IMG/VR virus record: IMGVR_UViG_3300037521_000114
Coordinates: 1 to 64,000 of that record
Length of the DNA stretch: 64,000 nt
Direction: 5' to 3' (one strand)
DNA from: a virus
The position numbers and the translations under genes were made by a program. Positions within the stretch are counted from its first letter, which is position 1, and the number at the start of each line of letters is the position of its first letter. The notes below the pieces were generated by a model. The model saw only the letters and a program-made list of their open reading frames with translations, was not told where the DNA came from and made no database searches. This document shows, in pieces, positions 4,869-10,921 of this stretch.

Positions 4869-5071
4869 TGGGAACGCCACATAAAGAAGAAAAGCGACAT
4901 ACTCCCAAGCGTAGAACTGCGGAGATGAAGGAGCTTCTCGATGCAAGTCTTGATGCCTTTGATGATCTGAAAGATCAAGCACATTTTGCCAACCTGATTC
5001 ATGGATTAAGCATGGAAATGTTGGAAACAGTTGCAATCAGAGAAATGAAGCCTGTTGATGAAGGCTCGTGA
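4868..5071 (+). CDS. Small hypothetical protein
   Basis: 67-aa ORF; TAATG overlap upstream and short overlap downstream. Confidence 0.55.
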   Translation: MGTPHKEEKRHTPKRRTAEMKELLDASLDAFDDLKDQAHFANLIHGLSMEMLETVAIREMKPVDEGS

Positions 5072-6230
5072 AATGAGAACAGCAGTAATCGGACTTGGAT
5101 TTGGAGATGAGGGTAAAGGTATGGTGGTATCACACCTTTGCTCTCATTTCAACAATCCTTTAGTCGTCAGATATTCAGGTGGACACCAAGCAGGTCATAC
5201 CGTTGTACACAAAGACATCAAACATACGTTTGCAAACTTTGGGTCAGGTACACTGCAAGGATGTCCTACTTACTGGTCGAAATATTGTACAATTGAACCT
5301 GTCGGTTTACTCAAGGAGCTTACAATCCTTGTGGATAAGATGGGTACAAGTTTTGATGATGTGAAAATCTACATCCACGAAGAATGTCCTGTAACTACTC
5401 CTTTCGATATATTTCACAATCAGAAATTGGAGAAAGAGAAGATGTACGGAACTTGTGGAGTTGGGTTTGGTGATACTCTCGAAAGAGAAGAAGATCACTT
5501 CCATCTACATTTTTCAGACCTGTTTAACCCTACTATTTTGAAGATCAAATTGGAACAGATTCGTAAGTACTACGGTTTGTTCCATGTCCTTAAAGACATT
5601 GATGTAGGACCTTTTATGGAAGCTGTGGATATACTCAATGCGAAAAACGTATTTCCTCACGATGTCATTATTCCTGTAAAGAGTAATGAAATACCAGCAC
5701 ATCCAAATACCATTTATGAAGGCTCACAAGGTCTTTTACTTGATCAGGATATTGGATTCTTTCCCAACGTAACACGCTCTAATGTAGGACGTAAGCGTTT
5801 GGATGAGTTCATTTATGCTTATGATGAGGTATGGTATGTGACGAGAGCGTACCAAACTCGTCATGGTTATGGTCCGATGACTAATGAGGAGCATCCATTG
5901 AAGCTGATCAATAATAAAGGTGAGTCGAATCTCGATAACTTTTATCAAGGACAGTTTCGGAAGAGTATGCTTGACGTTGATCTTTTAAATTATGCTTTAG
6001 AGCAGGATTCTAAGAGTGTCAGAAACATCCAGACTAAATATCTGGTGATCACCTGTCTTGACCAAATGGTTAATTGGCGGTTCACTCAGGGCGGTCAGGT
6101 ATTTGATTCTGGAAATGAAGAGAAGTTCATTGCGAATGTAGTGAGTGCTTTGAATTTTAAAGGAATGGTGTACCTTAGCCGATCCGAAAATAATGAACTT
6201 GAACAATGGAAAGGAGGAAAGGATGTCTAA
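5055..6230 (+). CDS. Adenylosuccinate synthetase-like ligase (divergent PurA family)
   Basis: GLGFGDEGKG, GGHQAGHTV, GTCGVG, YEGSQGLLLD, FPNVTRS and TRAYQTRHG motifs; start may be at 5073. Confidence 0.85.
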   Translation: MMKAREMRTAVIGLGFGDEGKGMVVSHLCSHFNNPLVVRYSGGHQAGHTVVHKDIKHTFANFGSGTLQGCPTYWSKYCTIEPVGLLKELTILVDKMGTSFDDVKIYIHEECPVTTPFDIFHNQKLEKEKMYGTCGVGFGDTLEREEDHFHLHFSDLFNPTILKIKLEQIRKYYGLFHVLKDIDVGPFMEAVDILNAKNVFPHDVIIPVKSNEIPAHPNTIYEGSQGLLLDQDIGFFPNVTRSNVGRKRLDEFIYAYDEVWYVTRAYQTRHGYGPMTNEEHPLKLINNKGESNLDNFYQGQFRKSMLDVDLLNYALEQDSKSVRNIQTKYLVITCLDQMVNWRFTQGGQVFDSGNEEKFIANVVSALNFKGMVYLSRSENNELEQWKGGKDV

Positions 6231-6792
6231 AGTAATAAAATTTGAAGATTTTGACTTAACGCAAGTAGGTAACACTATGGAAATCGAAGGAGTTCTGTAT
6301 GGCGATACGCTTGTAATGCTTCCGGACACTAAGGGTTTTATGTACCTTGAAATCCTCATTCCAACTCTTGAAGAGTGGGGAAAGATTATCCGACAATCCG
6401 ACCTGAAAGAAATCGAAGGTATGTCAAAGGGTCAAAAAATTATCTTGCGGAAATCTACCCGACAGATCGAACAGAAGGTCTCTTGGGAGGTGTTCCGCAG
6501 AGACCATTATACCTGTCGGTATTGTGGTGCAGATGACCGACCCTTGACGGTAGACCATGTTGTAGTATGGGAAGAAATGGGTCCGAGTGTCCCAATGAAC
6601 CTCATTTCGAGTTGTAAGAAATGCAACAACAAACGAGGCACAATGAGATACGAGGCTTGGCTTGAAAGTCCCTACTATCTGTCAAACGTTCCAGCATTAA
6701 CTGTAGATGTAATCGCAAATAATGTAAGAGCCATAGCAGATATACCCTACATCAAGGAACACCTCTTACGCAACGTGAAGCGTAGCCGATGA
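6223..6792 (+). CDS. HNH endonuclease-domain protein
   Basis: RRDHYTCRYC...LTVDHV...NLISSCKKCNNKRG; ATG at 6223 overlaps the previous stop. Confidence 0.85.
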   Translation: MSKVIKFEDFDLTQVGNTMEIEGVLYGDTLVMLPDTKGFMYLEILIPTLEEWGKIIRQSDLKEIEGMSKGQKIILRKSTRQIEQKVSWEVFRRDHYTCRYCGADDRPLTVDHVVVWEEMGPSVPMNLISSCKKCNNKRGTMRYEAWLESPYYLSNVPALTVDVIANNVRAIADIPYIKEHLLRNVKRSR

Positions 6793-6932: not shown

Positions 6933-6981
6933 TTCACGATTCTCTAATTATCTTAGTAGCAATCTTTTAAATCTTTTTCTC

Positions 6982-8634
6982 ATGGGAAAATTCAATGAGA
7001 AGAGTACGACCAAACACGTACCTTCTGAAACAAACGCAATGGGTTCCGCAGCGTATAAACTGGACCCTAAAGAAGAACTCGTATCTACTATACTGACTAC
7101 TTTTGTACAGAAGTCTTACTACGAAAAAGAGAAGGAAATCATGAAACGCTTCCGAAAGGCAGCAGAGAATTGTGATCCTTTGTTCGTAGCAAAGACAGCT
7201 CTGTATGCTCGTGGTCCTGCGAATATGAGAACGTCTTCACACGTCCTTGCAGCCGAACTTGCTCCACGAATTACTGGACTTGAATGGTCTTCAAGGTTTT
7301 ACAACAAGATCGTAAACCGGACTGATGATATGAGTGAGATTCTATCTTACTATGAAGGTATCATGAAGGGTAAGGGAGTTCCTAACGCTATGCGTAAGGG
7401 ATTCAAGAAGTATCTTGAGGGTATGGACCCTTATCTGATTGATAAGTACAAAATGCCCGGAAGAGAGATTTCTCTTATCGACCTTGTGAATCGTATGCAC
7501 CCTGTTCCAACTCAGTCTAACGCAGAAGCATTTAAGCTGCTCATGACCAAAGGTGGAAAAGGAATAGATAAACTCTATGGCTCGAAGATTCTTGAGAAAG
7601 AAATGTCCAAAGCTGGTACAGCTCCTAAAACAGCTCAAAAAACTGTTGCTGAAGCGAAAGAAGAAGCTATCAAGGACGTGCTGAGCAATGTTAAAGGTAT
7701 GCCTATTTTTAACCTGTTGAGGAACCTGAGGAATATCATCCTCTACTCTCCAACAAGTGTTAATGCTGCTTGTAATCAACTCGTTATTCCTGAGAAGATT
7801 TACAAGTCAAGGCTCCTACCTTTCCGGTTCCTGTCTGCTCATCTTGAAATTACCAAGATGAAATATGACCTTAAAGAAGGAACATCCGGTAAAATTGTCT
7901 TTGAAGATGAAATTGAAGGTCGTGTTGCAACTCGTGAAGAGTTCACCAAGCTCAAAGCTCAGGTTCTCGCTCATCTTGAAAAGGCTGTTGAGCTGTCTTG
8001 TCATAATATCCCTGAATTGGAAGGTCGTGTAGCAATACTGATTGACCACTCAGGGTCAATGAGAGGAGATGGTGGAGGTAGTTCACTTGTCTCAGCACTG
8101 TCACGTACTACCAGTTCTGATATTGCAAACATCTTCGCTGCTATGCTTCTGAGTAAGCAACCAAGCGTATATGTTGGTCTCTTCGGAGATACTCTACTTC
8201 AGTATAAAGTAGATCGTGAGAAGGGAATCCTTGCAATGTCAAGGGATATGCACCGTAAAGGTAGTAGCTGTGGAGGTGGAACTGAACAAGGGGTTTACGT
8301 GTTCTTTGAGGAATTGATTAAGAGCCGTACTCCTGTGGACTTCATTATTGTGTTCTCTGACATGGTTATCGGTGAGAGAAACTCTTGGTATGGTGTATCA
8401 GGAGATCGTCGTCCCGGAAGGTTCCAAGACATCTTTAAGCAGTTCAGGAAACTGTATCCTACAACCAAAGTTGTGTCTGTTGATATTAGGCAGACATCTG
8501 GTACTACTGTGTTCAATAAGAACTTCGGTGTATCTCAGGTTGCTGGATGGTCAGAAAAGATTTTTGATGTAATCGCTGAAGGCGGTGCTGGTTATAAAGC
8601 CATCATCGAAGAAATCGAAAAGATCAAAATTTAA
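6982..8634 (+). CDS. TROVE-domain Ro60/Rsr-like RNA-binding protein with C-terminal vWA domain (550 aa)
   Basis: N-terminal N.MG..AY.L.P.EEL, DPLFVAKTALYAR..NMR, KYK...SLIDLVNRMHPVP, MPIFNLLRNLRNI, SRLLPFRFLSA, and vWA MIDAS ILIDHSGSM...VFSDM; ATG at 6982 preferred over TTG at 6865. Confidence 0.92.
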   Translation: MGKFNEKSTTKHVPSETNAMGSAAYKLDPKEELVSTILTTFVQKSYYEKEKEIMKRFRKAAENCDPLFVAKTALYARGPANMRTSSHVLAAELAPRITGLEWSSRFYNKIVNRTDDMSEILSYYEGIMKGKGVPNAMRKGFKKYLEGMDPYLIDKYKMPGREISLIDLVNRMHPVPTQSNAEAFKLLMTKGGKGIDKLYGSKILEKEMSKAGTAPKTAQKTVAEAKEEAIKDVLSNVKGMPIFNLLRNLRNIILYSPTSVNAACNQLVIPEKIYKSRLLPFRFLSAHLEITKMKYDLKEGTSGKIVFEDEIEGRVATREEFTKLKAQVLAHLEKAVELSCHNIPELEGRVAILIDHSGSMRGDGGGSSLVSALSRTTSSDIANIFAAMLLSKQPSVYVGLFGDTLLQYKVDREKGILAMSRDMHRKGSSCGGGTEQGVYVFFEELIKSRTPVDFIIVFSDMVIGERNSWYGVSGDRRPGRFQDIFKQFRKLYPTTKVVSVDIRQTSGTTVFNKNFGVSQVAGWSEKIFDVIAEGGAGYKAIIEEIEKIKI

Positions 8635-8658
8635 TTTTCAGCTATACAGAATTTTATA

Positions 8659-8666
8659 TATATTTG
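8659..8666 (+). promoter_or_regulatory. Bacteroidota-type -7 promoter element (TAnnTTTG) at the start of the RNA array
   Basis: TATATTTG at 8659-8666, abutting RNA unit 1; only a weak TTTT/TTTC match about 20 nt upstream. Confidence 0.55.
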
Positions 8667-8758
8667 CAAAGAGAGTGACAATTAGGAGGCTTACTTCGTT
8701 ACAAGTTCCATTATACTTTTACAGATAATCGTCTTCTTTGATTTTTCCTCTCTTTGCA
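8665..8758 (+). ncRNA. Y-RNA-like unit 1 (minimal cargo hairpin)
   Basis: TGCAAAGAGAG/CTCTCTTTGCA terminal stem, GGAGGC/GTCTTC inner stem, TTACTTCG at 8691-8698, ATTAT/ATAAT hairpin at 8710-8729, U-run after. Confidence 0.7.
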
Positions 8759-8764
8759 TTTTTA

Positions 8765-8773
8765 GTTCTTTGA
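8765..8773 (+). promoter_or_regulatory. boxA-like antitermination element
   Basis: GTTCTTTGA right after the U-run of unit 1; resembles rRNA-operon boxA. Confidence 0.4.
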
Positions 8774-8794
8774 TACAAAAACATTATAATACTT

Positions 8795-8890
8795 GGGGGA
8801 ATGTTGAAAAACACTCTCAGATACTTTCTCTGGAAGCAGTAGCCATTCAGAGAGTTACTTCGGACTTGGGTCTCAAAAACCCATTCCCCC
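8795..8890 (+). ncRNA. Y-RNA-like unit 2 (circularly permuted scaffold, Leu-CAA anticodon arm)
   Basis: GGGGGAA/TTCCCCC closing stem; CTCTC..TTTCT-CTG-gaag-CAG-TAGCCA..GAGAG-TTACTTCG; TGGGT-CTCAAAA-ACCCA anticodon-like hairpin at 8867-8883. Confidence 0.65.
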
Positions 8891-8894
8891 GCTA

Positions 8895-8973
8895 AACTAC
8901 AAGAATTGTGCTCAGTCCTCTGAGAGGCATTGAGGGGCTTAATGTTATCCCTTATTAACAGGTTCTTGTAGTT
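8895..8973 (+). ncRNA. Structured spacer RNA A (three-way junction)
   Basis: 11-bp AACTACAAGAA/TTCTTGTAGTT stem enclosing CTCAGT-CCTC/GAGG-ATTGAG and TGTTA/TAACA hairpins. Confidence 0.5.
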
Positions 8974-8975
8974 AC

Positions 8976-8984
8976 GTTCTTTAA
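8976..8984 (+). promoter_or_regulatory. Second boxA-like element
   Basis: GTTCTTTAA between spacer RNA A and unit 3. Confidence 0.4.
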
Positions 8985-8988
8985 AATT

Positions 8989-9165
8989 AAATTGTAGTAC
9001 CCAAGATGAGACTTACTTCGTAGCTCTTCGGAGCAATCGTAGGTTCGAATCCTGCTTTCCCCACGATACATTAACAATACAATGGGGAAATAGCCAAGTG
9101 GTCAAAGGCAACTAATTTTGGTTTAGTTAAACACTGATGCAGTCTTACTATTTCGTCTACAATTT
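8989..9165 (+). ncRNA. Y-RNA-like unit 3 (YrlA-like, circularly permuted tRNA-Gln(UUG) cargo)
   Basis: AAATTGTAG/CTACAATTT and TGAGACT/AGTCTTA stems; TTACTTCG at 9013-9020; order is T-arm (9039-9055), 3' acceptor strand TTTCCCC, linker, 5' acceptor strand GGGGAAA, D-arm, anticodon arm with TTG at 9118-9120. Confidence 0.8.
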
Positions 9166-9176
9166 TTTAACTTATT

Positions 9177-9245
9177 GGCAGCACCGTCTATTCTACGTCC
9201 GTTCCGGACAAAGGGTTGAATTTCCATGGCTGGATTGGTGCTGCC
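9177..9245 (+). ncRNA. Structured spacer RNA B
   Basis: Perfect 9-bp GGCAGCACC/GGTGCTGCC stem with internal GTCC/GGAC hairpin. Confidence 0.5.
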
Positions 9246-9252
9246 TCCCTTT

Positions 9253-9382
9253 TAAGGGTAGCAAGGAAGTCACTTACTTCGAAACGTAGCTCAGTTGGTA
9301 GAGCTTTTGATTGATAATCAGAATGTCGGTGGTTCAAATCCATCCATTTCGCACAATGACAGTGATCCCATTTCCTCCCTTA
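9253..9382 (+). ncRNA. Y-RNA-like unit 4 (embedded tRNA-Ile(GAU)-like cloverleaf)
   Basis: TAAGGG/CCCTTA and TCACT/AGTGA stems, GTAGCAAGGA loop, TTACTTCG at 9274-9281 overlapping the tRNA 5' end. Confidence 0.75.
9280..9352 (+). tRNA. tRNA-Ile(GAT)-like cloverleaf embedded in unit 4
   Basis: Acceptor CGAAACG/CATTTCG (one C-A mismatch), D-arm GCTC/GAGC, anticodon arm TTTGA-TTGATAA-TCAGA, T-arm GGTGG-TTCAAAT-CCATC; no CCA; C discriminator. Confidence 0.7.
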
Positions 9383-9396
9383 TCCTATTTAATGCT

Positions 9397-9528
9397 TAAA
9401 GAGTAGCAAGGATAACACTTACTTCGTAGCTCAGTTGGTTAGAGCACAAACCTGTAAAGTTTGATGTCTCAGGTTCAATTCCTGACGTACCCGAAAGGGT
9501 CCATAGTGTTACCAGTTTTCTCTCTTTA
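9397..9528 (+). ncRNA. Y-RNA-like unit 5 (acceptor-less tRNA body, GUA/Tyr anticodon)
   Basis: TAAAGAG/CTCTTTA and TAACACT/AGTGTTA stems; TTACTTCG at 9419-9426; D-arm, CAAAC-CTGTAAA-GTTTG, TCAGG-TTCAATT-CCTGA, only 2 bp of acceptor stem, then an ACCC-GAAA-GGGT hairpin. Confidence 0.75.
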
Positions 9529-9543
9529 TTTAATTTCAAAGCT

Positions 9544-10809: not shown

Positions 10810-10882
10810 TGACCTCTGGTGTAACTGGTAACACGTTCCCCTTTGGAGGGAAAGAGTACAGGTTCAAGCCCTGTGAGGTCAT
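10810..10882 (+). tRNA. tRNA-Gln(TTG)
   Basis: TGACCTC/GAGGTCA acceptor (U1-A72), GTGT/ACAC D-stem, TTCCC-CTTTGGA-GGGAA anticodon arm, ACAGG-TTCAAGC-CCTGT T-arm; CCA not encoded. Confidence 0.9.
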
Positions 10883-10921
10883 CTAACGTTTAATATTTTT
10901 TATTAACTAAACCACAAACAA

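What the first reader, a model, noticed from the sequence alone, without database searches (positions are those of the whole stretch)
6982..9528. Phage Ro60 (TROVE) gene followed by five same-scaffold Y-like RNAs, each displaying a different tRNA-derived cargo
Seen: TTACTTCG occurs five times in about 740 bp after the TROVE stop (8691, 8855, 9013, 9274, 9419). Each copy sits just 3' of a short stem. That stem is separated from a terminal stem by an internal loop with GTAGCAA/GTAGCCA/GTACCCA/GTGACAA on one side and TTTC(N)TC on the other. Stem sequences differ completely between units while pairing is kept, so structure rather than sequence is conserved. The cargo varies: a possible UUU loop, a CAA anticodon arm, a permuted UUG tRNA, a GAU tRNA and an acceptor-less GUA body. 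Established: bacterial Ro60 orthologues (Rsr) are encoded next to Y RNAs, YrlA-type Y RNAs mimic tRNA, and several anti-phage systems act through anticodon nucleases (PrrC, PARIS, retron PtuAB). Inference: a modular Ro60-scaffolded library of tRNA mimics, possibly decoys that soak up host anticodon nucleases or tRNA-sensing defences, or protected tRNA reserves. I am not aware of a described multi-unit, variable-cargo array of this kind, but could not search the literature.
Basis: partly seen in the sequence, partly recalled or inferred. Interest (0 to 1): 0.95.

Follow-up and report, generated by a model that had tools for sequence, protein, structure and literature searches.

The report
Phage Ro60 gene with Y-RNA array
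A marine crAss-like phage encodes the ring-shaped RNA-binding protein Ro60 followed by five small RNAs that share one conserved docking stem and carry different tRNA-shaped bodies; they belong to a widespread but uncatalogued branch of the known Ro60 partner RNAs (Y RNAs), and their job is still untested.

Summary
TTACTTCG occurs five times on the + strand within 736 nt after the TROVE/Ro60 gene, each time at the same place in a two-helix "handle". I defined the handle on 69 distinct sequences: terminal stem, invariant bulged U, two pairs, a Y.U mismatch, R-U, A, an 8-bp second stem, then (U/A)UACUUCG. All 18 pairs covary. The handle lies beside, and on the same strand as, TROVE genes in crAss-like and unrelated phages, including cultured crAss001, and in Alphaproteobacteria and Acidobacteriota. 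In 81 genomes of one bacterial family, handle and TROVE co-occur in 12, with one genome each having only one (Fisher 2e-12). Its 5' strand (consensus GGYGAAG...UUAC) corresponds to the published Ro60-contact motifs of YrlA (GNCGAAN0-1G, YUAY). Rfam's YrlA model does not reach it. These are therefore Y RNAs of a YrlA-related, uncatalogued branch. Arrays of up to about five CM-scored units are common next to bacterial rsr, so the array itself is not new. What is unusual here is a whole tRNA-Ile and a sealed tRNA body mounted in normal tRNA order with anticodon arms, a permuted tRNA-Gln, and a circularly permuted handle. The decoy idea is untested. This scan met the same handle earlier in at least 10 other genomes.

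The parts
6982..8634 (+). Ro60/TROVE-vWA protein gene (550 aa), with MIDAS-type DHSGS at residue 355
   Evidence: Pfam TROVE 5.1e-15. PHROG 850 'RNA-binding protein' 1.6e-30 over residues 2-534. Best solved relative is Thermus phage phiLo Ro60, 9KOP/9L5Y, at 6e-12. DxSxS motif found.
8665..8758 (+). Unit 1, a minimal Y RNA. Terminal stem 8665-8675/8748-8758; bulged U 8676; GACAA 8677-8681; stem 2 8682-8690/8731-8738; UUACUUCG 8691-8698; 32-nt unstructured cargo; 3' loop 8739-8747; U-run 8759-8763.
   Evidence: CM R1 scores 59.2 bits, but this unit is in the seed. Orthologues in L002 and L004 keep the stems with one-sided changes.
8795..8891 (+). Unit 2, with a circularly permuted handle inside a cloverleaf. 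Acceptor-like GGGGGAA 8795-8801 / UUCCCCC 8884-8890; mini hairpin 8802-8813; stem-2 3' strand 8814-8821; UACUUUCU 8822-8829; cap CUG-GAAG-CAG 8830-8839; bulged U 8840; AGCCA 8841-8845; stem-2 5' strand 8846-8854; UUACUUCG 8855-8862; hairpin 8867-8883 with loop CUCAAAA (CAA).
   Evidence: The same design is in L002 and L004, and independently in L188. A sediment variant keeps loop CUCAAAC on a different stem.
8990..9164 (+). Unit 3, a handle with a permuted tRNA-Gln(UUG)-like cargo. Terminal stem 8990-8997/9157-9164; U 8998; ACCCA 8999-9003; stem 2 9004-9012/9142-9149; UUACUUCG 9013-9020; GCUC-UUCG-GAGC hairpin 9023-9034; T arm 9039-9055; 3' acceptor 9056-9062 plus A; linker; 5' acceptor 9084-9090; D arm 9093-9109; anticodon arm 9111-9127.
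   Evidence: (tRNA model 21.6 bits for 9084-9150). CM R1 gives only 10 bits, E 0.24, with a 119-nt insert. The second loop pair is C-G here against G-C elsewhere, a compensatory change.
9177..9245 (+). Conserved long hairpin without a handle, between units 3 and 4 (GGCAGCACC...GGUGCUGCC, inner GUCCG-UUC-CGGAC, conserved GGGUUGAAUUUCCAUGG). Identity unknown.
   Evidence: Present with a covarying outer stem in L002 and L004. No Rfam match.
9251..9384 (+). Unit 4, a handle holding a complete tRNA-Ile(GAU) by its acceptor end. Closing G 9258; U 9259; AGCAA 9260-9264; stem 2 9265-9273/9362-9369; UUACUUCG 9274-9281, whose CG is tRNA positions 1-2; tRNA 9280-9352; 3' loop 9370-9376; terminal 3' strand 9377-9382.
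   Evidence: ARAGORN and Rfam tRNA 62.6 bits. CM R1 29.2 bits, E 2.9e-6 on 5 kb.
9396..9529 (+). Unit 5, a handle holding a tRNA body (D, anticodon GUA and T arms) with a sealed acceptor. Closing G 9403; U 9404; AGCAA 9405-9409; stem 2 9410-9418/9506-9513; UUACUUCG 9419-9426; cap hairpin ACCC-GAAA-GGGU after the T arm; 3' loop 9514-9521; terminal 3' strand 9522-9527.
   Evidence: Rfam tRNA 52.5 bits, model positions 6-65 only. CM R1 33.9 bits, E 1.7e-7. The L004 orthologue has the same handle, D arm and T arm but anticodon GAU, with a compensatory stem change.

Best explanation
The 8.66-9.53 kb stretch encodes five co-oriented small RNAs of the Y RNA class, the partner RNAs of the phage's own Ro60 (TROVE-vWA) protein. 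Each carries a conserved handle: a terminal stem, an invariant bulged U, a short helix with a fixed pyrimidine-U mismatch, a second 8-bp stem and the junction sequence UUACUUCG. The 5' strand of the handle is the counterpart of the published Ro60-contact motif (GNCGAAN0-1G) and of the YUAY element of YrlA. By inference, the handle docks the Ro60 ring. The variable cargo is tRNA-shaped in four of the five units and would act as the effector module, presenting a tRNA-like surface to tRNA-recognising proteins of host or phage and so tethering Ro60 to them, as proposed for YrlA. Shown: a real, covarying RNA family; its strict linkage to TROVE genes; the tRNA-derived cargo of units 2-5. Inferred: Ro60 binding, discrete transcripts and the effector role. 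Cargo probably arose by recombination of handles with neighbouring tRNA genes, and it changes quickly between close relatives.
For: Handle structure. 34 non-redundant scaffolds show 3-6 pair types per stem column. The two loop pairs were not used to pick the scaffolds and are paired in 33/34 and 34/34, with G-C/A-U covariation. The bulged U is invariant. In the CM-based alignment of 69 distinct sequences, 89.7% of cells are paired against 62.3% when shuffled, 18/18 pairs change on both sides, and the covariation score is 0.698 against 0.209 shuffled and at most 0.19 when slid. Linkage to TROVE. Most of the 80 viral TROVE loci carry TTACTTCG near the gene, and every copy is on the gene's strand. 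Five of five further records with handles have TROVE within about 1.5 kb on the same strand. In whole 4-10 Mb bacterial genomes the model hits almost only the rsr locus. In 81 genomes of one family, 13 have the handle, 13 have TROVE and 12 have both, on the same contig and strand (Fisher 2.4e-12). crAss001 has a single hit, about 95 nt downstream of its TROVE gene gp96. Link to known Y RNAs. The bacterial consensus GGYGAAG and UUAC match the GNCGAAN0-1G and YUAY of PMC4201824. Cargo of bacterial units and one L010 unit matches the tRNA-like core of Rfam YrlA at 28-40 bits. Protein. TROVE, MIDAS motif and similarity to phage phiLo Ro60, which binds Y-like RNAs (PMC12135203).
Against: There is no evidence of transcription or of binding for this phage. 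Rfam YrlA (gathering score 69 bits) does not hit any window unit. The window's own 5' motifs (AGCAAGG, ACCCAAG, GACAAUU, AGCCAUU) have drifted from GGYGAAG, so the match to the published Ro60 motif holds for the family and is weak for these five units. The model R1 does not significantly hit the loci of phiLo or Vibrio phage Va1, so no biochemically tested Ro60-RNA pair carries this handle. Units 2 and 3 are not detected by the CM; they rest on manual parsing and on conservation in L002, L004 and L188. The covariation alignment was fitted to the model, which biases it towards the structure.
Confidence: 0.75

Rival explanations
1. Decoy or sensor library. Ro60-held tRNA mimics display anticodon arms (CAA, UUG, GAU, GUA) to soak up, or report, host anticodon nucleases and other tRNA-targeting defences.
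For: Anticodon-arm-like hairpins (5 bp, 7-nt loop YU-NNN-R-N) occur in 12 of 43 phage unit clusters, against 1.5 expected from shuffles, but in only 1 of 43 bacterial clusters (Fisher 0.0016). Close relatives keep the handle, D arm and T arm yet change the anticodon: GUA, GAU and UCU at the last unit. The loop CUCAAAN is kept on three different stems. L002 and L004 display a GAU loop in a different frame at the place where the window has tRNA-Ile(GAU). A Ro60-like phage protein, Bas63 gp130, counters a defence system (PMC11482910).
Against: Nothing links these RNAs to any nuclease. The displayed anticodons are diverse, with no enrichment for known nuclease targets. Six of the 12 phage cases come from one lineage (the window, L002 and L004). 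Rapid anticodon change fits relaxed constraint as well as it fits an arms race. Bacterial arrays of the same handle lack anticodon arms, so the handle system as such is not a decoy device.
Confidence: 0.2
2. Caged or reserve tRNAs. Units 4 and 2 (and perhaps 3 after processing) are working tRNA genes. The handle is a flanking stem that protects them or times their release by RNase P and RNase Z.
For: Unit 4 is a high-scoring, complete tRNA-Ile at 62.6 bits. The whole 101-kb genome has only three ARAGORN tRNAs, and two of them sit in handles. M. smegmatis YrlA is cleaved by RNase P and receives CCA (PMC4201824).
Against: Many units of the family have no tRNA-like cargo at all, only 11-36 nt of cargo. 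Unit 5 has no free acceptor end and unit 3 is permuted. Unit 4 has a C6.A67 mismatch, a C discriminator and no CCA. Handle sequences are conserved far beyond what a processing stem would need.
Confidence: 0.1
3. The handle is not a Ro60 site. It would be a terminator, a processing or repeat element, or the site of another protein, and lie near TROVE only by synteny.
For: Several units end in a U-run after the terminal stem. No binding data exist.
Against: TROVE is the only gene seen next to the handle in every kind of locus examined, from crAss-like phages, large phages (contigs up to about 208 kb), Alphaproteobacteria and Acidobacteriota. The fixed loop nucleotides, bulged U and Y.U mismatch, and a circularly permuted version that still keeps them, point to a recognised three-dimensional module. 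The sigma-70 promoter and terminator scan found no more than chance.
Confidence: 0.04

Closest known systems
YrlA / YrlB Y RNAs with bacterial and mycobacteriophage Rsr (Ro60). Sources: Chen et al. 2014, PMC4201824; structure preprint 10.1101/312249; Rfam RF02553.
   Same: Encoded within a few kb of a TROVE gene and on its strand. A long stem is formed by the 5' and 3' ends. The 5'-strand motif (family consensus GGYGAAG against GNCGAAN0-1G) is followed by YUAY (UUAC). The design is modular, a Ro60 module plus a tRNA-like effector module. Unit 3, and most bacterial members of this handle family, have the YrlA order of T arm, closed acceptor, D arm. Several such RNAs can lie near one rsr gene.
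   Different: The Rfam model does not reach these RNAs: no hit in the window or the genome, and only the tRNA core at 28-40 bits in relatives. The handle has an extra lower stem, an invariant bulged U, U-rich 3' strand pairing (Y.U, G.U) and an invariant UUACUUCG junction. Units 4 and 5 carry the tRNA in normal order with an anticodon arm, which YrlA lacks. Unit 2 has a permuted handle and free acceptor ends.
Thermus phage phiLo Ro60 with Yrl1 and Yrl2 (PMC12135203; PDB 9KOP, 9L5Y)
   Same: A phage-encoded Ro60 with neighbouring Y-like RNAs. It is the best solved relative of the window's protein (6e-12).
   Different: Yrl1 and Yrl2 lie upstream of the gene and were picked by a CGAA motif. My handle model does not hit them; there is only a weak look-alike downstream of the gene, E 0.34.
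Bas63 gp130, a Ro60-like protein upstream of a phage tRNA array (PhageMaP preprint, PMC11482910)
   Same: A Ro60-like gene beside a tRNA cluster. The authors guess that some annotated tRNAs are Y RNAs. In the window, two of the three called tRNAs are exactly that.
   Different: No RNA scaffold is described there, and the phenotype (countering the ppl defence) is for another phage. I did not examine Bas63.
Circularly permuted tRNA genes of red algae and some archaea (from my own knowledge, not checked here)
   Same: Unit 3 has the 3' half (T arm and 3' acceptor strand) ahead of the 5' half.
   Different: Those are matured through a circular intermediate by the splicing endonuclease. Here the permuted tRNA is closed into a Y RNA stem at the variable-loop position, with no sign of such processing.

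Membership tests
Y RNA (Ro60 partner RNA; criteria of PMC4201824) | Encoded within about 4 kb of a TROVE/Ro60 gene, on the same strand | tested here: met
   The units start 31 nt after the TROVE stop, on the + strand. The same holds across phages and bacteria.
Y RNA (Ro60 partner RNA; criteria of PMC4201824) | Stem formed by pairing of the 5' and 3' ends that carries the Ro60 site | tested here: met
   Units 1, 3, 4 and 5 meet it. Unit 2 has the same module as a capped internal hairpin.
Y RNA (Ro60 partner RNA; criteria of PMC4201824) | 5'-strand motif GNCGAAN0-1G, and YUAY further 3' | tested here: inconclusive
   The family consensus GGYGAAG, exactly GGCGAAG in several bacterial and phage units, and UUAC fit the motifs. 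The five window units read GACAAUU, AGCCAUU, ACCCAAG, AGCAAGG and AGCAAGG, which have drifted. UUAC is present in all five.
Y RNA (Ro60 partner RNA; criteria of PMC4201824) | Bound by Ro60 in vivo or in vitro | not testable with these tools
   No RNA-protein prediction or data are available.
Rfam RF02553 YrlA | Score at or above the gathering threshold of 69 bits | tested here: not met
   No hit in the window even at E up to 10, and none in the whole genome. Relatives reach 28.5-40.3 bits, mostly for the tRNA-like core.
YrlA-type tRNA mimic | T arm, then a closed acceptor-like stem, then D arm; no anticodon loop; no free CCA end | tested here: inconclusive
   Unit 3 has the T-acceptor-D order but keeps an anticodon arm. 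Units 4 and 5 have the normal D-anticodon-T order. Unit 5 has a sealed acceptor. Unit 2 has free ends.
tRNA (RF00005) | Full cloverleaf above the gathering score of 29 bits, with a free acceptor end | tested here: inconclusive
   Unit 4 scores 62.6 bits over the full model, but both ends run on into the handle and no CCA is encoded. Unit 5 scores 52.5 bits for positions 6-65 only. Unit 3's 5' half scores 21.6 bits.
Ro60 / TROVE protein | TROVE (HEAT-repeat ring) domain plus a vWA domain with a MIDAS motif | tested here: met
   Pfam TROVE 56 bits against a cut-off of 23. phiLo Ro60 at 6e-12. DHSGS at residue 355. The fold itself was not modelled.

The most novel reading that the evidence does not exclude
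Phages have turned the ordinary Ro60/Y-RNA pair into a display system. The constant handle parks Ro60, and perhaps a bound exonuclease, on interchangeable complete anticodon arms or whole tRNAs. These would serve as baits, decoys or damage sensors against tRNA-targeting host immunity, with the displayed anticodon evolving under an arms race.
Probability: 0.2. Interest if true: 0.85.

Novelty: new variant of a known kind. Interest (0 to 1): 0.55.

Why it matters
Ro60 and Y RNAs are a conserved but poorly understood RNA-surveillance pair. This work defines, with a covariance model and strong covariation, a handle that marks Ro60 partner RNAs in many phages and soil bacteria and that Rfam's YrlA model misses. 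It shows that genome annotation miscalls such RNAs as tRNAs: two of this phage's three 'tRNAs' are handle cargo. It shows that phage versions, unlike bacterial ones, often mount whole anticodon arms or whole tRNAs. The same RNAs lie next to the early-expressed TROVE gene of cultured crAss001, so the function of phage Ro60 can be tested directly in a gut-phage model.

Tried and rejected
- **Rfam scans.** Rfam 15 scans of the window, 12 phage loci and 13 bacterial loci found only tRNA, tmRNA and C4 matches and no Y RNA family.
- **Expression.** No RNA holder was listed among public runs. All 24 holders are DNA runs by record, nearly all from marine sediment. Laying four of them gave only strain variants.
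- **Handle model R1 on other phages.** With filters off, R1 gave no significant hit on Thermus phage phiLo or Vibrio phage Va1. I therefore could not tie the handle to the only phage Ro60 with tested RNAs.
- **Klebsiella and Cronobacter phage matches.** Their DNA matches to unit 4 are plain tRNA similarity, not handles.
- **Promoters and terminators.** The sigma-70 promoter and terminator scan found no more than chance.
- **Chance matches of the 5' pattern.** About half of the exact matches in viral and genome collections lack the 3' half and lack TROVE. I set them aside as chance.
- **Self-regulation idea.** A handle-like half-site (GUAGCAA...UUUUCUC) abuts the TROVE start codon. It is conserved only in the window and L002 and scores 4.8 bits, E 5, so it is not supported.
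- **Unit 1 'UUU loop'.** No conserved hairpin was found.
- **Literature gaps.** The supplement of Chen 2014 and two Wolin reviews are not held, so I could not check whether Bradyrhizobium or acidobacterial arrays are listed there.
- **Pairing score alone.** My first pairing score was a weak discriminator: 13 of 14 pairs is common in shuffles. I added the loop pairs, the 3' motif and the covariance model.

Full report
**The locus.** The window is part of a complete 101,194-bp virus record. Its nearest public relative is the crAss-like phage cr111_1 of the Steigviridae. Near-identical DNA is found in marine-sediment metagenomes.

The ORF at 6982-8634 (+) is a Ro60 homologue. It matches Pfam TROVE at 5e-15 and PHROG 850 'RNA-binding protein' at 1.6e-30 along its whole length. 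Its best solved relative is the Ro60 of Thermus phage phiLo, 9KOP, at 6e-12. It carries a MIDAS-type DHSGS motif at residue 355. An adenylosuccinate-synthetase gene and an HNH endonuclease gene lie upstream.

**The observation.** TTACTTCG occurs at 8691, 8855, 9013, 9274 and 9419, all on the + strand. The rest of the 64-kb window has one copy, on the other strand, and shuffles give a mean of 1.78 per window. ARAGORN and Rfam call tRNA-Ile(GAU) at 9280-9352 and a tRNA body with GUA at 9421-9492; the latter matches only model positions 6-65. No Y RNA family of Rfam 15 matches, even at E up to 10. RF02553 (YrlA) has no match in the whole genome.

**Anatomy of the handle.** Hand parsing and scripts give one architecture for units 1, 3, 4 and 5, listed 5' to 3':
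- a terminal stem of at least 6 bp, closed by G-C
- a bulged U
- an R-Y pair and an S-S pair
- a pyrimidine-U/C mismatch
- an R-U pair
- an A
- a 9-nt strand that forms an 8-bp second stem
- UUACUUCG
- the cargo
- the return strand of stem 2
- 2-4 extra nucleotides
- (U)UUCY
- the terminal stem's return strand

In 34 non-redundant scaffolds the bulged U is invariant. The two loop pairs played no part in picking the scaffolds, and they are paired in 33/34 and 34/34 cases, with G-C/A-U covariation. The mismatch is never a standard pair. Every stem column shows 2-6 pair types.

**Unit 2 is permuted.** It holds the same module in circularly permuted form. The terminal stem is capped (CUG-GAAG-CAG), and the RNA ends lie in an acceptor-like helix, GGGGGAA/UUCCCCC. 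The same design is in L002 and L004 and, with a different cap, in the unrelated contig L188. I also see it by eye in crAss001. A module that survives permutation looks like a recognised three-dimensional unit and not like a processing stem or a terminator.

**A covariance model.** I built model R1 (76 positions, 18 pairs) from 11 minimal units.
- In the window it scores 59.2 bits for unit 1 (a seed member), 33.9 bits for unit 5 and 29.2 bits for unit 4, and nothing else in 64 kb at E up to 1.
- With filters off, unit 3 reaches only 10 bits because of its 119-nt insert, and unit 2 is missed, as expected for a permuted form.
- On the model's alignment of 69 distinct sequences, 89.7% of cells pair against 62.3% when shuffled.
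- All 18 pairs change on both sides.
- The covariation score is 0.698 against 0.209 shuffled (0 of 500 shuffles reach it) and at most 0.19 when partners are slid.
- That alignment is fitted to the model, which inflates pairing somewhat. The script-based counts agree.

**Linkage to TROVE in viral contigs.** Most of 80 viral contigs that encode a relative of the protein (46-78% identity) carry TTACTTCG close to the gene, and every copy in those loci is on the gene's strand. There are four copies downstream in the two closest relatives and two or three copies 200-500 nt upstream in most others.

An exact-pattern scan of viral contigs found two kinds of hit. One kind was chance matches without a 3' half. 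The other was full handles beside very distant TROVE genes (25-31% identity), with 3-6 units per locus. All five records whose short locus lacked TROVE turned out to have it within about 1.5 kb on the same strand.

**Linkage to TROVE in cellular genomes.** The same handle lies upstream of rsr in Bradyrhizobium, Hyphomonadaceae, Micropepsaceae, Edaphobacter and other Acidobacteriota. It occurs in rows of up to about five CM-scored units, or 6-7 by eye. In whole 4-10 Mb genomes, R1 hits almost only that locus. In 81 genomes of one bacterial family, 13 have the handle, 13 have TROVE and 12 have both, on the same contig and strand. Fisher's test gives 2.4e-12.

**Relation to known Y RNAs.** Chen et al. 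2014 define YrlA by several features: closeness to rsr, a 5' motif GNCGAAN0-1G thought to contact Ro60, a YUAY element, and a tRNA-like domain in the order T arm, closed acceptor stem, D arm. They found such RNAs in 254 bacteria and 22 phages, sometimes several per locus.

The bacterial consensus of my handle reads G-U-G-G-Y-G-A-A-G...(U/A)UACUUCG. GGCGAAG is an exact instance of their motif, and UUAC is an instance of YUAY.

The cargo of the Bradyrhizobium units matches positions 24-84 of Rfam YrlA, the tRNA-like core, at 36-40 bits, while the handle does not align. One crAss-like unit (L010 3506-3610) gets a full-length but sub-threshold YrlA match of 28.5 bits against a gathering score of 69.

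I conclude that this is a branch of the YrlA/YrlB kind of Y RNA with a differently built Ro60 module, one that Rfam's YrlA model does not reach. The window's own 5' motifs (AGCAAGG and similar) have drifted from the consensus, along with a diverged protein. The motif argument therefore holds for the family more than for these five units.

**The cargo.** Across 86 clusters of units (heuristic classification):
- Bacterial cargo is mostly in YrlA order or has no T or D arm.
- Phage cargo is a mix: none or short A-rich (11-36 nt), YrlA order, T arm only, and normal tRNA order.
- Anticodon-arm-like hairpins occur in 12 of 43 phage clusters, against 1.5 expected from shuffles, and in 1 of 43 bacterial clusters (Fisher 0.0016). 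Half of the phage cases come from the window's own lineage, and a few parses span two units.

In the window:
- Unit 4 holds a complete tRNA-Ile by its acceptor end. The CG of the motif is tRNA positions 1-2. It has a C6.A67 mismatch, a C discriminator and no CCA.
- Unit 5 is a D-anticodon-T body whose acceptor is sealed by 2 bp plus an ACCC-GAAA-GGGU cap.
- Unit 3 is a tRNA-Gln-like RNA opened at the variable loop, with T arm and 3' acceptor strand first.
- Unit 2 shows a CAA loop next to a free acceptor-like helix.
- Unit 1 has no structured cargo.

The genome has only three ARAGORN tRNAs, and two of them are handle cargo.

**Turnover between relatives.** The last unit has an almost identical handle, D arm and T arm in the window and in L004. 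The anticodon is GUA in one and GAU in the other, with a compensatory change in the anticodon stem and a covarying cap hairpin. L002 has UCU there. Unit 2's loop is CUCAAAA in the window and L004, CUCAAAC on an unrelated stem in a sediment variant, and UUCAUAG in L002. L002 and L004 carry, where the window has unit 4, a different RNA (GGGACA...UGUCCC) with a YUGAUCA loop on covarying stems. This fits selection on what is displayed, but relaxed constraint is not excluded.

**Function.** Nothing here shows transcription or binding. No RNA run is listed for this phage.

The best-supported mechanism rests on analogy with Rsr-YrlA and on the linkage data: Ro60 docks on the handle, and the tRNA-shaped cargo engages tRNA-recognising proteins. 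I put 0.75 on 'Ro60 partner RNAs of a YrlA-related branch'. Within that reading I put about 0.2 on the decoy or sensor idea and about 0.1 on releasable tRNAs.

Published context is consistent with this but indirect:
- The TROVE gene of crAss001 is an early gene (PMC8375218 and PMC10136315).
- Bas63's Ro60-like gp130 counters a defence, and its authors suspect that some neighbouring 'tRNAs' are Y RNAs.
- phiLo Ro60 binds Y-like RNAs and host PNPase.

**A test bed.** In cultured crAss001, R1 has a single hit in the genome, 96,689-96,774 (-), about 95 nt downstream of TROVE gene gp96. It lies in a 900-nt unannotated gap that holds four copies of the variant junction UUACUUCA. One of them sits in a tRNA-like RNA with a permuted handle.

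**Novelty.** I found no paper in the searched library that describes this handle, tRNAs mounted in normal order on a Y RNA stem, or TROVE-linked RNAs in crAss-like phages. Two reviews and the supplement of Chen 2014 were not available.

Earlier notes of this scan report the same TTACTTCG handle in at least 10 other genomes and reach the same reading. I re-derived it independently here.

Verdict: a real feature, and a new variant of a known kind. The array organisation is ordinary for this family. The phage-specific cargo types and the permuted handle are the interesting parts.

Noticed in passing
window 9177-9245: A conserved hairpin of about 70 nt without a handle lies between units 3 and 4. 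It has a GGCAGCACC/GGUGCUGCC outer stem, an inner GUCCG-UUC-CGGAC and the conserved block GGGUUGAAUUUCCAUGG. L002 and L004 have it with a covarying, longer outer stem. There is no Rfam match.
   Followed up: partly
window 6955-6984: Directly before the TROVE start codon the sequence reads G-UAGCAA, about 12 nt, UUUUCU-C-AUG, which is the two loop halves of the handle as a small hairpin. It is conserved in L002 but absent from more distant relatives, and the CM gives only 4.8 bits. This is a weak hint of self-regulation.
   Followed up: partly
L004 1644-1722 and L002 about 6247-6325: Where the window has unit 4, the two closest relatives carry a different RNA, closed by GGGACA/UGUCCC, with a D-arm-like segment and a hairpin. 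The hairpin's 7-nt loop reads YUGAUCA (GAU) on covarying stems.
   Followed up: partly
window 8765-8773 and 8976-8984: The motif GUUCUUUGA / GUUCUUUAA recurs 10-25 nt ahead of units 2 and 3 and ahead of the matching units in L002 and L004. It could be a unit promoter or a processing signal. The sigma-70 scan did not pick it up.
   Followed up: no
L337 (crAss001, MH675552 95,965-96,870, - strand): The unannotated gap after TROVE gene gp96 holds four UUACUUCA junctions. One lies in a tRNA-like RNA (GGAGGGA...UCCCUCC-A) with a permuted handle inserted. None is annotated.
   Followed up: partly
L332 4521-4588 (Thermus phage phiLo): Downstream of the phiLo Ro60 gene lies a handle look-alike: CUGGGC/GCCCAG, GGUUUUGG/CCAAAACC, GUACUUC and a 3' loop ending UUUCC. 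It scores only E 0.34, overlaps the start of annotated ORF phiLo_25, and is not one of the published Yrl1 or Yrl2.
   Followed up: no
window 5055-6792; L333 (Vibrio phage Va1): An adenylosuccinate-synthetase gene lies just upstream of the TROVE gene both here and in the unrelated Vibrio phage Va1. The window has an HNH endonuclease gene between the two.
   Followed up: no
window 8862-8988 and 8897-8973 (sediment variants): Public marine-sediment assemblies hold strain variants. One replaces unit 2's cargo (same CAA loop on a new stem), one lacks the 77-nt spacer 8897-8973, and one has a unit-3 handle with a different stem 2 and no GCUC-UUCG-GAGC hairpin.
   Followed up: partly
window 10810-10883: The only free tRNA of the genome is tRNA-Gln(UUG), the same anticodon as the permuted cargo of unit 3. 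The two sequences are unrelated. By eye and from memory, not checked, unit 3's D arm resembles bacterial tRNA-Gln.
   Followed up: no
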